64,000 nucleotides of DNA, from the IMG/VR virus record IMGVR_UViG_3300033757_000347, one strand, 5' to 3'. This document shows positions 305-11,679 of this stretch, piece by piece. A program made the position numbers and the translations under genes. Every line of letters begins with the position of its first letter. Position 1 is the stretch's first letter. The DNA is from a virus (lineage: Duplodnaviria > Caudoviricetes). Below the pieces are notes generated by a model, which searched no databases, was not told where the DNA came from, and saw nothing but the letters and a program-made list of their open reading frames with translations.

Positions 305-413
305 GATTTGTAGTGAGAAACAGAGTTTCATCGTTGGTTATCACAGGTTCGAATCCTGTACCAAGCTTCCATAATGCTTAGTATCAAGTCACTCTTTTCG
401 GCTTTCTCAAATC
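305..413 (+). ncRNA. Y-RNA-like scaffold RNA A (payload: T arm + closed acceptor-like stem)
   Basis: GATTTG/CAAATC terminal stem, TAGTGA/GGCTTTCT loop, GAAA-C-AGAGT/ACTCT-TTTC stem, payload ACAGG-TTCGAAT-CCTGT. Confidence 0.7.
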
Positions 414-473
414 TTTAATCAAAACAAAAGGGTGTAAGTTCGAATATAAATAAAATAAACAATAAACGAACTT

Positions 474-1193
474 ATGAAAATCTGTGAAAACTGTCAATGT
501 GAACATAATGGAAGTTACGGTTCCGGACGATTTTGTTCAGAAAAATGTTCTAGATCCTTCGTTACTAAAGCAAAGCGTAAGGAAATAAACGAAAAAATTA
601 GTAAAAAATTAAGTAATCTAGGACACGCACCAATAATTAAATTATGCAGCGTTTGTAACAATCAATTTACGGTAAACTGGGCAAAGAGAACTCAACAATA
701 TTGTTCAAAAAAATGTTCAGGTAAAATAAATGGTATACTTGGAGGTAATGCTATTAAATCAAATACTTCAGCAATGGGAGGATTTAGACCAAATGGAGGA
801 AGGCCTAAAACTTTTACATACGTTAATTGGTTAAATGAAAAAATGTCTTTAAACAAAGATGAAATTCTAGTTGCTAAAGTATTAGATCATTTAAAAATCA
901 AGTGGAATAGAAATTTAGTTGGGTTCGATTATGTAGACATTGATGGTAAAATTAGAAAATACTATCCAGATTTTTATATTTCGGATTTTAATACTTACGT
1001 TGAGTATAAGGGTTGGTTAAATGAAAAAATATTACATAAGATGAATGATGCGATAAACAAAAATTCATTGAAACTAGTCATTATTTACTCAAATGATAAG
1101 AGATATAATAAATTGGGGTTAAGCTTACGAGAATTAGAAATCAACCCAGAATTATTAATACAAAAATGCGTCTATGGTGAAATGGTATCATAA
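474..1193 (+). CDS. putative homing endonuclease, Zn-finger repeats + PD-(D/E)XK nuclease
   Basis: CxxC/FCS repeats, YYPDF...YVEYKG, AT-rich, late promoter TATAAATA at 445. Confidence 0.75.
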   Translation: MKICENCQCEHNGSYGSGRFCSEKCSRSFVTKAKRKEINEKISKKLSNLGHAPIIKLCSVCNNQFTVNWAKRTQQYCSKKCSGKINGILGGNAIKSNTSAMGGFRPNGGRPKTFTYVNWLNEKMSLNKDEILVAKVLDHLKIKWNRNLVGFDYVDIDGKIRKYYPDFYISDFNTYVEYKGWLNEKILHKMNDAINKNSLKLVIIYSNDKRYNKLGLSLRELEINPELLIQKCVYGEMVS

Positions 1194-1241
1194 TGGTCTC
1201 CAAAACCACAGTTCTCTGTTCGAATCGGAGTAGGCGTGCCA
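1168..1241 (+). tRNA. tRNA-Trp(CCA)
   Basis: Loop CTCCAAA, encoded CCA; overlaps the endonuclease stop. Confidence 0.88.
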
Positions 1242-1251
1242 CATTATTAAT

Positions 1252-1324
1252 GCCTCTTTAGCTCAGACGGTAGAGCGACTGTTTCGTACTCAGTAGGTCG
1301 TCGGTTCGATTCCGGCATGAGGCT
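1252..1324 (+). tRNA. tRNA-Thr(CGT)
   Basis: Loop TTCGTAC, canonical D and T arms. Confidence 0.82.
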
Positions 1325-1330
1325 CTCAAC

Positions 1331-1406
1331 GCCTTTGTAGCTCAGCTGATAGAGCCACTGATTTGTACTCAGAAGGTCGGGGGTTTGAATCCCTCCAAAG
1401 GCTCCA
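1331..1406 (+). tRNA. tRNA-Thr(TGT)
   Basis: Loop TTTGTAC, encoded CCA. Confidence 0.88.
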
Positions 1407-1412
1407 CAAAAT

Positions 1413-1619
1413 CACCTCTTAGCTCAGCGGTTAGAGCGTCCGGTTGAGGGCCGGAACTTGAGGACTTCGGTAAGGTACTCGTTTACTTTTGCGCAGAGGT
1501 AACCGATGAAGTAGCCGGGAGAGTCAAGGTAGACGAACCTGAAAATCAAGATGAGGGTACCCGAATCAAGACCATACGGTGTAGTCGAGAAGTCAGAGGT
1601 TCAAATCCTCTAGGGGTGT
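1413..1619 (+). ncRNA. tRNA-Leu(GAG)-like RNA with ~135-nt structured insertion in the variable arm
   Basis: CACCTCT/AGGGGTG acceptor, D arm, TCCGG-TTGAGGG-CCGGA anticodon arm, long insert, then AGAGG-TTCAAAT-CCTCT T arm. Confidence 0.7.
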
Positions 1620-1731
1620 CGATGAGCCGGCAGGCCACCGGATCGTAGTTCCTCGCTTTCCCTGATCGTAAGGTCAAACGACGAGCCGCACCGTAAGGCG
1701 GACGGGTTGGCAACTCCCGCTGACATTGAAC
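1619..1731 (+). ncRNA. unidentified structured RNA
   Basis: TCGATG/CATTGA closing stem with several GC-rich hairpins, two capped by GTAA tetraloops. Confidence 0.4.
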
Positions 1732-1744
1732 AAAGTTGCATAAC

Positions 1745-1821
1745 GGGCATATAGCTCAGTTGGTTAGAGCATCTGACTGATATTCAGAAGGCCGTAGGTT
1801 CGACTCCTACTTTGCCCACCA
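1745..1821 (+). tRNA. tRNA-Ile(GAT)
   Basis: TCTGA-CTGATAT-TCAGA, encoded CCA. Confidence 0.9.
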
Positions 1822-10760: not shown

Positions 10761-10771
10761 CACTCACTAAC

Positions 10772-10803
10772 CGAGGCCGGTTCCAGGCCGGCCTCGTTTT
10801 TTT
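10772..10803 (+). terminator. intrinsic terminator after Ro60
   Basis: CGAGGCCGG/CCGGCCTCG hairpin + T run. Confidence 0.85.
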
Positions 10804-10808
10804 CACAT

Positions 10809-10916
10809 GGAGTAAAAGGGCCGAAACGGTCCCGAAGGACCTGCTAAAAGCCTAGGTAAGTTAGTAAGGCTTCGGAAAAGCTGAATCGGATTGCTAGTTC
10901 AATTCTGGCTACTCCT
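10809..10916 (+). ncRNA. atypical tRNA-like RNA
   Basis: GGAGTA/TACTCC acceptor, GCTAG-TTCAATT-CTGGC T arm, non-canonical D, anticodon and variable arms. Confidence 0.5.
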
Positions 10917-10936
10917 CTAAAAATAAATAATTCTTT

Positions 10937-11113
10937 GAAACCGCTGACGAGGTGGGTGTAAGATAAACAACAGGGACTGCTGTTGGCCCGAAAAGGTGAG
11001 ACGGTAGGTAGCTTAGGCGCAGAAATGCGTTACCGAATCAATCGGAGGTTTATACTAGGGGGACACAGGGAAATTAGATGAAGTACCTCCCTCGAAAAGT
11101 AGTCGACGGTTTC
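10937..11113 (+). ncRNA. unidentified structured RNA
   Basis: GAAACCG/CGGTTTC closing stem, CGAGG/CCTCG, CAACAG/CTGTTG, GCGCA-GAAA-TGCGT hairpins. Confidence 0.5.
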
Positions 11114-11139
11114 TTTGTTCTTTGAAGACATTAAAAATA

Positions 11140-11269
11140 TTTGGGTAGCAACGCGTAGGGATACTTCGTAGCTTAGTTGGTTTAAGCAATTGTTCGCAAC
11201 ACAATGGATCGCCGGTTCAAGTCCGGCCGAACGCCGAGAGGCGTAAAGCCCTTGCCCCATTCTCCCAAA
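11140..11269 (+). ncRNA. Y-RNA-like scaffold RNA G (payload: D arm + GCA anticodon arm + T arm + extra hairpin)
   Basis: TTTGGG/CCCAAA, TAGCAA/CCATTCT, AGGG/CCCT, TACTTCG; ATTGT-TCGCAAC-ACAAT. Confidence 0.75.
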
Positions 11270-11328
11270 AACTTATTAAAAACCATGAAGAGAATCAACA
11301 GTTCGTAGGGTCAGATCGTTCTGACAAT

Positions 11329-11529
11329 ATGAAAACACAAACTGAAAAACCGAAACAGCCTCTCAAGTATTGGCTGGTAGACATCACCCTTACGAGTGGT
11401 GAAGTTCTACACTTTTACGTGAAAGCCCTGAACATTCACGAAGCTTATCAAAAAGCTGATGGGTATGCAGAATGGACGAGTAACGAGCAGTTGTTGAATC
11501 ACCTGCGAACTTTCAAACTCATGGTTTGA
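11329..11529 (+). CDS. hypothetical protein
   Basis: ORF preceded by an amber-terminated leader ORF. Confidence 0.65.
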   Translation: MKTQTEKPKQPLKYWLVDITLTSGEVLHFYVKALNIHEAYQKADGYAEWTSNEQLLNHLRTFKLMV

Positions 11530-11542
11530 AATTGAATTTAAG

Positions 11543-11679
11543 AAATCCGGTAGTAAAGGAGCAGAGTTACTTCGCGAAAATCGCCCAGCTGATAGGGCAA
11601 TTGTTTTGGGGACAATAGGTCAGCGGTTTGAATCCGCCTTTTTGCAACACAGACAACTCTTCTCGACTTTCTCCGATTT
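11543..11679 (+). ncRNA. Y-RNA-like scaffold RNA F (payload: whole tRNA-Pro(TGG)-like cloverleaf)
   Basis: AAATC-CGG/CCGATTT, TAGTAA/GACTTTCT, AGAGT/ACTCT, TACTTCG; GCGAAAA/TTTTTGC acceptor, ATTGT-TTTGGGG-ACAAT. Confidence 0.75.

What the first reader, a model, noticed from the sequence alone, without database searches (positions are those of the whole stretch)
305..11679. Phage Ro60 with a family of at least seven modular Y-RNA-like RNAs carrying interchangeable tRNA-derived payloads
Seen: seven elements (305-413, 1993-2103, 2889-2974, 6677-6831, 7413-7480, 11140-11269, 11543-11679) share one architecture: a terminal stem whose sequence differs in every copy but always pairs (GATTTG/CAAATC, AAGTAG/CTACTT, AAGAAG/CTTCTT, AAAAGTAA/TTACTTTT, AGACG/CGTCT, TTTGGG/CCCAAA), a conserved internal loop UAGYRA opposite ..UUCU, a bulged helix ending AGAGU/ACUCU-like, then UACUUCG, then a variable payload. 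The payloads are T arm + acceptor, D-anticodon-T arms, a short hairpin, a permuted tRNA, a 17-nt stub, or a whole tRNA. They sit among the tRNAs and on both sides of the Ro60/TROVE gene (9132-10760). Known: bacterial Ro60 (Rsr) binds the terminal bulged stem of Y RNAs, and YrlA-type Y RNAs carry a tRNA-like effector module. Inference: this is a plug-and-play Ro60 RNP system in which one handle displays many tRNA mimics, plausibly to decoy anticodon nucleases or to recruit RNA repair or decay enzymes (RNA ligase at 19059, HAD at 37646).
Basis: partly seen in the sequence, partly recalled or inferred. Interest (0 to 1): 0.92.

Follow-up and report, generated by a model that had tools for sequence, protein, structure and literature searches.

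The report
Handle-tagged tRNA mimics beside phage Ro60
A large uncultured phage carries ten small RNA genes that mount tRNA look-alikes on one conserved structural "handle" around its Ro60 gene; the same pairing recurs in many distant phages, so these are probably an undescribed kind of Y RNA, the partner RNAs of the Ro60 RNA-surveillance protein.

Summary
All seven elements exist at the stated coordinates and share one architecture. A covariance model built from other copies finds each at E <= 3e-8. The phage genome has ten copies, all on one strand within 13.5 kb of tRNA array around the Ro60 gene.

Across 126 distinct copies from about 30 related phage loci, 94% of the modelled pairs form, against 64% in shuffles. 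All 17 pairs show compensatory changes. The ORF at 9132-10760 is a true Ro60: its predicted fold matches every solved Ro60.

The handle accompanies Ro60 genes down to 26% identity. In the complete GenBank genome of phage csAssE-Sib, the only three copies lie in tandem just upstream of Ro60.

No Rfam family matches the handle, YrlA included, and I found no paper describing it.

Payloads are tRNA parts in every topology: normal order, circularly permuted, or with the handle as an internal arm. Their anticodon loops mostly copy those of the phage's own tRNAs.

Ro60 binding and the decoy idea are untested. A few incomplete contigs have a handle but no Ro60.

This scan has reported similar handle-plus-Ro60-like systems on other genomes.

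The parts
305..413 (+). E1: handle RNA. Payload is a T arm plus a closed acceptor-like hairpin. Its 7-mer is UUCAUCG.
   Evidence: R2 match 304-414, 42.5 bits, E 1.4e-8. It was not in the model's seed. Fold. It starts 4 nt after tRNA-Asp.
1993..2103 (+). E2: handle RNA. Payload is D arm, anticodon arm (loop CUCUUAA, Lys CUU) and T arm, with no acceptor stem; the handle helix takes its place.
   Evidence: R1 E 8e-7 as a non-seed. R2 62.7 bits. Rfam tRNA hit 2021-2076 covering model positions 7-64. The loop is identical to that of the phage tRNA-Lys.
2889..2974 (+). E3: handle RNA with a short hairpin payload.
   Evidence: R2 64.9 bits. The MFE fold gives the handle.
6677..6831 (+). E4: handle RNA carrying a circularly permuted tRNA-Leu(UAG). 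Order: anticodon loop, T arm, 3' acceptor strand with encoded CCA, linker, 5' acceptor strand, D arm. The handle leaves from the anticodon stem.
   Evidence: R2 65 bits, E 4e-14. Sequence read. It exactly fills the gap between two tRNA-Leu genes, with gaps of 1 and 5 nt.
7413..7480 (+). E5: handle RNA with a 17-nt stub, close to a bare handle.
   Evidence: R2 56.2 bits. Lies 2 nt after tRNA-Leu and 7 nt before tRNA-His. Orthologues in L011, L013 and L014.
9132..10760 (+). Ro60 (TROVE HEAT-repeat ring plus vWA domain with a MIDAS site).
   Evidence: phmmer against phiLo Ro60 (PDB 9KOP/9L5Y): E 1e-9 over residues 38-520. AF2 model pLDDT 78.8; Foldseek's top 13 hits are all solved Ro60s, E 6e-15 to 5e-12, TM 0.52-0.68. 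MIDAS residues D370, S372, S374, T443 and D467 are invariant in 13 homologues. Pfam TROVE and vWA_Ro60 score just below their cut-offs.
10811..10918 (+). A further conserved tRNA-like RNA (acceptor-like closing stem plus T arm plus a long arm) directly after the Ro60 terminator. It lacks the handle.
   Evidence: RNAalifold on 5 relatives keeps the closing stem and the T stem, with compensatory changes. No Rfam match.
11140..11269 (+). E6: handle RNA with a tRNA-like body in normal order. The short acceptor is formed by UUCG of the 7-mer pairing with CGAA. Anticodon-like loop UCGCAAC, plus an extra hairpin.
   Evidence: R2 41.1 bits, E 3e-8, not in the seed. Rfam tRNA hit 11165-11231.
11540..11682 (+). 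E7: handle RNA enclosing a complete cloverleaf (Pro UGG-like, 7-bp acceptor, no encoded CCA).
   Evidence: R2 60.1 bits. ARAGORN and Rfam call a tRNA at 11574-11646. RNAalifold on a plain MAFFT alignment of 13 orthologues gives the handle plus a full cloverleaf: 38 pairs, 23 with compensatory changes.
18843..20096 (+). Context: RNA ligase.
   Evidence: Pfam PF09414, E 5.9e-30.
37595..38170 (+). Context: HAD phosphatase of the RNA-repair ('Swiss Army Knife') type.
   Evidence: Pfam PF18143 HAD_SAK_2, E 5.5e-21.

Best explanation
The ten elements are phage-encoded Y-RNA-like non-coding RNAs.

Shown:
- They are genes for structured RNAs that share a conserved, covarying handle. The handle runs: closing stem, bulged U, AG:CU pairs, internal loop with YRA, bulged two-part helix, UACUUCG.
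- The handle is attached to tRNA-derived bodies in several topologies.
- They lie on the tRNA and Ro60 strand, spaced like tRNAs in the array.
- The handle travels with Ro60 genes through very divergent phages.

Inferred:
- The RNAs are co-transcribed with the tRNA operon. Their ends are cut by the enzymes that process the flanking tRNAs (RNase P downstream, 3' processing upstream).
- The handle is the docking site for the phage Ro60 ring, as the bulged stem of Y RNAs is for cellular Ro60.
- The tRNA-like module is the effector end. It presents an authentic-looking anticodon loop, T arm or acceptor end to tRNA-binding partners: host nucleases, modification or repair enzymes, or PNPase as in RYPER complexes. 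Each RNA would thereby give Ro60 a different tRNA-type specificity during infection.
- The short copies (E3, E5) would be gate or tether RNAs without a mimic, like Salmonella YrlB.
For: Structure:
- 94.3% of 2110 pair cells are standard pairs, against 63.8% in shuffles.
- The covariation score is 0.789, against 0.204 in shuffles and at most 0.169 with slid partners.
- All 17 pairs change on both sides (one search gave the same on the first alignment).
- An alignment not fitted to the model gives the same handle plus a cloverleaf.

Strand and place:
- 130 of 130 model matches lie on the Ro60 strand.
- The 9 model matches in the genome (10 copies after resolving one chimeric match) lie in 13.5 kb around Ro60, with none in the other 160 kb.

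Co-occurrence with Ro60:
- All 30 Ro60-related IMG/VR loci carry the motif.
- Of 80 loci fetched by the 5' motif alone, 26 have the full handle. Eight of those 26 have Ro60 within the locus, against 0 of the 54 without a handle. Five more have Ro60 elsewhere on the contig.
- The complete genome of phage csAssE-Sib (Ro60 26% identical) has exactly three copies, in tandem, ending 86 nt before Ro60.
- The 635-kb phage LR745206.1 has one copy just upstream of its Ro60.
- Five of 7 metagenome-assembled-genome contigs with Ro60 relatives have the handle.

Protein: it is a true Ro60.

Precedent:
- Y RNAs are encoded within 4 kb of Ro60, on the same strand, and carry tRNA-like domains (PMC4201824).
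- Phage phiLo Ro60 binds two neighbouring Y-like RNAs that have a 5'-3' stem, an internal bulge with CGAA, and stem-bulge-stem (PMC12135203).

Other:
- About half of the copies lie within 10 nt of a tRNA or of another copy.
- Anticodon loops copy those of the phage's canonical tRNAs at 7/7, 7/7, 7/7, 6/7, 6/7 and 4/7 positions, while the stems are unrelated.
Against: - There is no binding, expression or end-mapping data.
- The handle lacks the GNCGAAN0-1G / GGUCCGA motif of known Ro60 ligands in most copies. UAGUAA and UAGCAA account for 98 of 126, and CGA occurs in only 5.
- RF02553 does not match any copy.
- In this genome most copies sit in the tRNA array 1.6-10 kb from Ro60, so linkage to tRNA genes is as strong as linkage to Ro60.
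- Twelve handle-bearing contigs show no Ro60 and, in the five checked, no DUF2828. All are incomplete (1-62%), but one has more than 40 kb on both sides of its single copy.
- Single-sequence folding energies are not better than shuffles, with z from -0.1 to -2.2.
- E7-type copies keep a full, compensated cloverleaf, which would also fit a releasable tRNA.
Confidence: 0.7

Rival explanations
1. The handle is a module of the phage tRNA operon that is independent of Ro60. It would be a docking or stabilising structure for another factor, such as a processing enzyme, a chaperone or a host protein. It lies near Ro60 only because Ro60 genes sit in or next to tRNA arrays.
For: Every copy lies among tRNAs, or is itself tRNA-like, on the tRNA strand. 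Twelve incomplete contigs have handles in tRNA arrays with no Ro60 detected. The megaphage has three copies 100-150 kb from its Ro60.
Against: In csAssE-Sib the only three copies in a complete genome abut Ro60, and there is no large tRNA array there. The handle tracks Ro60 from 99% down to 26% identity. None of the 54 control loci has Ro60. No other conserved neighbouring gene was seen.
Confidence: 0.14
2. The elements are carrier precursors of working tRNAs. The handle would be a transient leader-trailer helix, or an extra arm, that controls maturation. The embedded tRNAs would be released, or used as they are, for decoding: the whole cloverleaf in E7, the permuted tRNA with encoded CCA in E4, and the two upstream tRNA-like genes with an internal handle and free acceptor ends.
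For: E7-type orthologues keep a complete compensated cloverleaf. E4 and one upstream copy encode CCA at the acceptor 3' end. Mycobacterium smegmatis YrlA is cut by RNase P and receives CCA (PMC4201824). GenBank annotators called two csAssE-Sib copies tRNA-Tyr and tRNA-Lys.
Against: Every anticodon shown is already supplied by a canonical tRNA in the same array. Many copies have no acceptor stem (E2), only a hairpin (E3) or a stub (E5). E7 orthologues change the anticodon (UGG, UAG, UCA, CAG, AGG) while keeping the same acceptor stem. A handle conserved this strongly is not expected of a discarded leader.
Confidence: 0.1
3. The elements are selfish or catalytic: miniature mobile elements with terminal inverted repeats, or a new self-cleaving ribozyme that cuts the tRNA transcript.
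For: There are multiple dispersed copies among homing-endonuclease genes. Conserved unpaired nucleotides at a helix junction resemble ribozyme cores.
Against: The terminal stems differ in sequence between copies and change by compensation, which is selection on RNA pairing, not on conserved transposon ends. All copies lie on the transcribed strand. Orthologous positions are kept between phages. No ribozyme family matches at E <= 5.
Confidence: 0.03

Closest known systems
YrlA-type bacterial and mycobacteriophage Y RNAs with Rsr/Ro60 (Rfam RF02553; Chen et al. 2014, PMC4201824)
   Same: Encoded beside Ro60 on the same strand. A terminal 5'-3' stem with a conserved 5'-strand motif in an internal loop. 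A tRNA-like module with T arm, closed acceptor-like stem and D arm in permuted order; roughly two in three long payloads here have the T arm first. One member of each group carries an acceptor end that is cut by RNase P and receives CCA (YrlA) or is encoded with CCA (here).
   Different: The handle's sequence and geometry differ: bulged U, AG:CU, YAA, UACUUCG, against GNCGAAN0-1G. RF02553 does not match. There are ten copies per genome rather than one or two. The bodies also occur in normal tRNA order, as whole tRNAs, or with the handle as an internal arm. Most keep an intact anticodon stem-loop, which YrlA lacks.
Deinococcus radiodurans Yrn1 and the RYPER complex (Ro60, Y RNA, PNPase)
   Same: A bulged two-strand Ro60-binding helix closes the RNA ends. 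The tRNA-like part is in normal order, with an anticodon-like arm. This is the arrangement of E2, E6 and E7.
   Different: No sequence similarity. No PNPase link was tested here. Yrn1 is one of a few RNAs, not a panel with different anticodon loops.
Thermus phage phiLo Ro60 with Yrl1/Yrl2 (PDB 9KOP, 9L5Y; PMC12135203)
   Same: It is the closest solved protein by sequence (E 1e-9). It is a phage Ro60 with neighbouring small RNAs that have a terminal stem, an internal bulge and stem-bulge-stem.
   Different: The phiLo locus has no match to the handle model. Its RNAs were picked by the CGAA motif and carry no tRNA bodies. Protein identity is only about 20-24%.
Permuted and split tRNA genes; two-piece (permuted) tmRNA
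   Same: E4, the upstream copies and many relatives encode tRNA halves in 3'-then-5' order, joined through the acceptor end.
   Different: Here the permutation serves to attach a conserved handle. Nothing shows that a normal tRNA is rebuilt.
Dictyostelid Class I RNAs (PMC7919456), and the 'CAGCAA' handle RNAs that this scan reported beside TROVE-like genes on other genomes
   Same: A short variable closing stem followed at once by a conserved 5' motif ending in CAA, with a variable body. This is a lead from earlier notes. The paper confirms the stem, an 11-nt motif and its conserved positions.
   Different: The similarity rests on 5-6 nucleotides (UAGCAA here) and was not tested. Class I RNAs are eukaryotic, 42-65 nt long, and their known partner is an RRM protein.

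Membership tests
Y RNA in the broad sense (RNA partner of Ro60) | Physically bound by Ro60 | not testable with these tools
   Needs EMSA, pull-down or a structure.
Y RNA in the broad sense (RNA partner of Ro60) | Encoded near a Ro60 orthologue on the same strand | tested here: met
   E6 and E7 lie 380-780 nt downstream and E5 lies 1.65 kb upstream. All 130 matches are on the Ro60 strand in about 30 loci. csAssE-Sib has 3 copies ending 86 nt before Ro60.
Y RNA in the broad sense (RNA partner of Ro60) | 5' and 3' ends pair in a stem that contains a bulged helix or internal loop with conserved nucleotides | tested here: met
   Covariation in three helices, with a conserved bulged U and conserved loop nucleotides.
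YrlA (Rfam RF02553) | Match to the family covariance model at its gathering score (69 bits) | tested here: not met
   No match on any element at E <= 5. The best YrlA scores in the region, 27 bits, fall on tandem tRNAs. There is none at gathering score in the csAssE-Sib or megaphage loci.
YrlA (Rfam RF02553) | GNCGAAN0-1G motif near the 5' end (PMC4201824) | tested here: not met
   The hexamer is UAGUAA (49), UAGCAA (49), UAGCGA (5) or UAGUGA (5) out of 126. Only a few relatives read CGAA.
YrlA (Rfam RF02553) | tRNA-like domain with T arm, acceptor-like stem-loop and D arm | tested here: met
   E1, E4 and the copy at -844..-708, plus 67 of 126 family members, have the T arm first. By a motif-position rule, 29 have it last and 28 are short.
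Ro60 / TROVE2 / Rsr protein | HEAT-repeat ring (TROVE) followed by a vWA domain, with the fold of solved Ro60s | tested here: met
   AF2 model against 9KOP, 9NFA, 1YVR, 2NVO and 1YVP over 513-573 aligned columns, E 6e-15 to 5e-12. phmmer E 1e-9. The Pfam hits fall just under their cut-offs.
Ro60 / TROVE2 / Rsr protein | MIDAS motif (DxSxS...T...D) in the vWA domain | tested here: met
   D370, S372, S374, T443 and D467 are invariant in 13 homologues.
Canonical decoding tRNA (for E7 and the tRNA-like bodies) | Free 7-bp acceptor stem with a 3' CCA end, D arm, anticodon arm and T arm | tested here: inconclusive
   E7 has all four arms but is enclosed by the handle and lacks CCA. E2 lacks an acceptor stem. 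The upstream internal-handle copies lack a D arm. E4 is permuted.

The most novel reading that the evidence does not exclude
The phage uses Ro60 as a chassis for a panel of tRNA decoys or sensors. Each handle RNA would present the anticodon loop of one tRNA species (Lys, Leu, Tyr, Asp, Pro, Cys; Asn, Met and others in relatives). The panel would soak up or report host anticodon nucleases and other tRNA-targeting defences. Alternatively, it would bring cleaved tRNAs to the phage RNA ligase and HAD repair enzymes. Because the handle is portable (terminal or internal), new decoys could evolve by grafting it onto any tRNA.
Probability: 0.2. Interest if true: 0.92.

Novelty: new variant of a known kind. 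Interest (0 to 1): 0.8.

Why it matters
Ro60 and Y RNAs are conserved from bacteria to humans, yet the role of the tRNA-like domain of bacterial Y RNAs is still unknown. This phage lineage offers a natural experiment. One protein is paired with up to ten or more RNAs whose only shared part is a compact, strongly covarying handle, and whose variable parts are recognisable tRNA features, anticodon loops included.

This yields three things:
- a defined candidate Ro60-binding element to test;
- a covariance model that finds the family in distant phages, including a GenBank genome where two copies are annotated as ordinary tRNAs;
- a concrete hypothesis linking Ro60 to conflicts over tRNA between phages and hosts.

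Tried and rejected
- Rfam at gathering score and at E <= 5 gave only tRNA hits inside E2, E6 and E7. No YrlA, Y_RNA or ribozyme family matched.
- Nucleotide search of GenBank phages with 9000-12000 found no match.
- The motif hit at 54340-54362 is chance. It was not recovered by the R2 whole-genome search.
- The MAFFT alignment of short copies (A2) was off by one column in several rows. I used it only as a rough seed and let the model realign.
- The R2 hit at window -1703..-1553 proved to be a chimera of two neighbouring genes with loop-capped internal handles.
- Folding energies against shuffles are uninformative.
- DUF2828 (PF11443) was sought in five handle contigs without Ro60. None was found, but the control genomes did not ring either, so this says little.
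- The mobile-element and ribozyme readings were rejected for the reasons given under the rival explanations.
- The link to dictyostelid Class I RNAs, taken from earlier notes, was only checked against the paper's description. It was not tested on sequence.
- No handle-only model could be built, because a construct without the payload has no reference sequence.
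Full report
**Setting.** The window is part of a 174-kb IMG/VR phage record. 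ARAGORN finds 44 tRNA genes in the genome, all on one strand. Of these, 41 lie in the window, mostly between 1 and 9051. The array is interrupted by homing-endonuclease-like ORFs. It is followed by the ORF at 9132-10760.

**The protein.**
- The ORF aligns over residues 38-520 to the Ro60 of Thermus phage phiLo (PDB 9KOP/9L5Y, E 1e-9).
- Thirteen homologues keep the MIDAS residues.
- An AlphaFold2 model (pLDDT 78.8) has every solved Ro60 as its best Foldseek matches: phage, Deinococcus, Xenopus and human. E-values run from 6e-15 to 5e-12 and TM-scores from 0.52 to 0.68.
- It is therefore a genuine, divergent Ro60. The Pfam TROVE and vWA_Ro60 hits fall just under their cut-offs.

**The observation.** Reading the sequence, folding handle-only constructs and folding whole elements give one anatomy:
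- a variable closing stem;
- one bulged U;
- two conserved pairs, AG:CU;
- an asymmetric internal loop (YRA on the 5' side);
- a 2-4 bp helix whose sequence differs in every copy but pairs;
- a small 5' bulge;
- a 4-5 bp helix;
- the heptamer UACUUCG, then the payload.

**Covariance models.**
- I seeded a model (R1) from nine short copies. It found E2, E4 and E7, which were not in the seed.
- R1 found 88 matches in loci related through Ro60. A second model, R2, built from those 88, finds all seven window elements at E 4e-14 to 3e-8, with no other match below E 4 in 22 kb.
- R2 finds nine matches in the whole genome, all on one strand and all between window -1703 and 11682.

**Covariation.**
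- On 126 distinct sequences, 94.3% of pair cells are standard pairs, against 63.8% in column shuffles.
- The covariation score is 0.789, against 0.204 in shuffles and at most 0.169 when partners are slid by 1-3 columns.
- Each of the 17 pairs has changes on both sides.
- That alignment is fitted to the model. An RNAalifold run on a plain MAFFT alignment of 13 E7-type orthologues independently returns the closing stem, AG:CU, the inner helix and a complete cloverleaf, with 23 of 38 pairs compensated.
- The change UAG to UGG is matched by UUCU to UUCC, which shows that 'UAGYRA opposite UUCU' is a bulged U plus two pairs.

**More copies and a third topology.**
- A standard copy lies upstream of the window at -844..-708. 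Its body runs T arm, GAAA-capped acceptor hairpin, D arm, anticodon arm with a Tyr GUA loop.
- Two tRNA-like genes lie at -1745..-1622 and -1587..-1468. In these the handle is circularly permuted. Its closing stem is capped by a small loop, and the whole module sits inside the tRNA in place of the D arm. The acceptor ends are left free, and one ends in ACCA.
- The same capped form occurs in seven related loci. There are eight matches on the Ro60 strand (one, in L023, is probably a false match bridging two neighbouring elements) and none on the other.
- The genome therefore has ten handles. The handle is a portable module: it can be terminal or internal.

**Association with Ro60.**
- Starting from the protein, all 30 IMG/VR loci encoding a relative (99% to 37% identity) carry the 5' motif: 120 matches on the Ro60 strand against 6 on the other. 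With a closing stem and UUCU also required, the counts are 104 against 0.
- Starting from the RNA, a scan of IMG/VR for the 5' motif alone returned 80 loci. Of these, 26 have the full handle by R2 and 54 do not.
- Ro60 lies inside 8 of the 26 handle loci and 0 of the 54 others. Five more handle contigs have Ro60 elsewhere on the contig.
- The remaining twelve are fragments (1-62% complete). Two are large, 172 kb and 106 kb. Each has a single copy in a tRNA array and no Ro60. This is the main caveat.
- In GenBank, the complete 151-kb genome of gut phage csAssE-Sib (Ro60 26% identical) has exactly three R2 matches. They lie in tandem and end 86 nt before its 'Ro sixty-related protein'. Two are annotated there as tRNA-Tyr and tRNA-Lys.
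- The 635-kb phage LR745206.1 has one copy just upstream of its Ro60 and three elsewhere.
- phiLo has none. A Vibrio phage gives only a weak hit.
- Five of seven small contigs from metagenome-assembled genomes that encode Ro60 relatives also carry the handle. They are binned mostly with Bacteroidota.

**Payloads.**
- By a motif-position rule, 67 of 126 family members have the T arm first (permuted, as in YrlA). Another 29 have it last (tRNA order, as in Deinococcus Yrn1), and 28 are short.
- The anticodon-type loops in this genome are Lys CUU, Leu UAG, Tyr GUA, Pro UGG, Asp GUC and Cys GCA. All duplicate canonical tRNAs of the same array.
- They copy the canonical 7-nt loops at 7, 7, 7, 6, 6 and 4 positions, while the stems are unrelated. 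This is modest evidence, since tRNA loops are constrained anyway.
- E7 orthologues keep the acceptor stem but vary the anticodon. That argues against ordinary decoding.
- About half of all copies lie within 10 nt of a tRNA or of another copy. The ends are therefore probably made by tRNA processing. This is an inference.

**Comparison with what is known.**
- Bacterial and phage Y RNAs are encoded next to Ro60 on the same strand. They have a terminal stem with a conserved 5'-strand motif and often a tRNA-like domain (PMC4201824).
- phiLo Ro60 binds two such neighbouring RNAs and forms a complex with host PNPase (PMC12135203).
- The present family works like these by context and architecture. It fails two membership tests for YrlA: the RF02553 model and the GNCGAA motif. 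It also differs in copy number, in its range of topologies, and in keeping intact anticodon arms.
- I found no paper or Rfam family for it.
- Earlier notes of this scan report comparable handle RNAs beside Ro60-like genes on other genomes, with a CAGCAA-type handle. I did not test whether those are homologous.

**Verdict.**
- The reading as a modular, Ro60-linked, Y-RNA-like family is well supported by comparative evidence.
- Binding to Ro60 is likely (about 0.7) but unproven.
- The decoy or repair function is a reasonable hypothesis (about 0.2), with only circumstantial support: an RNA ligase and an RNA-repair-type HAD domain in the same window.

Noticed in passing
window 4676-4880 (+): An RNase P-like RNA in the tRNA array. 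It hits Rfam RF00373 (archaeal RNase P) over the full model at 37.7 bits, E 6e-8, below the gathering score of 84. At about 205 nt it would be a miniature, phage-encoded RNase P RNA.
   Followed up: no
window 10811-10918 (+): A conserved tRNA-like RNA without the handle, directly after the Ro60 terminator. It has an acceptor-like closing stem, a T arm and a long arm with a CGAA-capped hairpin. The stems are kept with compensatory changes in L009, L011 and L012. It could be a second kind of Ro60 partner.
   Followed up: partly
window 1412-1622 (+): By eye, a tRNA-like gene with acceptor, D arm and an anticodon arm with a GAG loop. Its T arm is separated from the anticodon arm by a GC-rich insert of about 140 nt at the variable-loop position. 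Neither ARAGORN nor Rfam calls it.
   Followed up: no
window 1620-1740, 5625-5750, 6300-6590, 10950-11135 (+): GC-rich stretches between tRNAs that look structured and have no Rfam match at E <= 5. In L009 the last one carries an insertion of about 345 nt.
   Followed up: no
window 474-1193, 2149-2739, 4024-4626, 5017-5622, 7688-8338 (+): Five ORFs of about 200-240 aa interrupt the tRNA array. One is GIY-YIG plus NUMOD3 and one is NUMOD3 plus a TnsA-like endonuclease. These are homing-endonuclease-type genes.
   Followed up: partly
window 21251-21324 (+): A tRNA with a CUA anticodon (amber suppressor type), which ARAGORN labels 'Pyl'. Earlier notes on this genome discuss it.
   Followed up: no
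L158 9630-9702 and 9775-9848 (GenBank OR575929.1, 72756-72974): Two genes annotated tRNA-Tyr and tRNA-Lys in phage csAssE-Sib are enclosed in handle elements just upstream of its Ro60 gene. They are probably Y-like RNAs rather than ordinary tRNAs.
   Followed up: partly
window 11706-12119 (+): By eye, the ORF after E7 has a C-x5-R-S motif like the low-molecular-weight phosphatase / arsenate-reductase fold. Pfam gave no hit at E <= 0.001.
   Followed up: no
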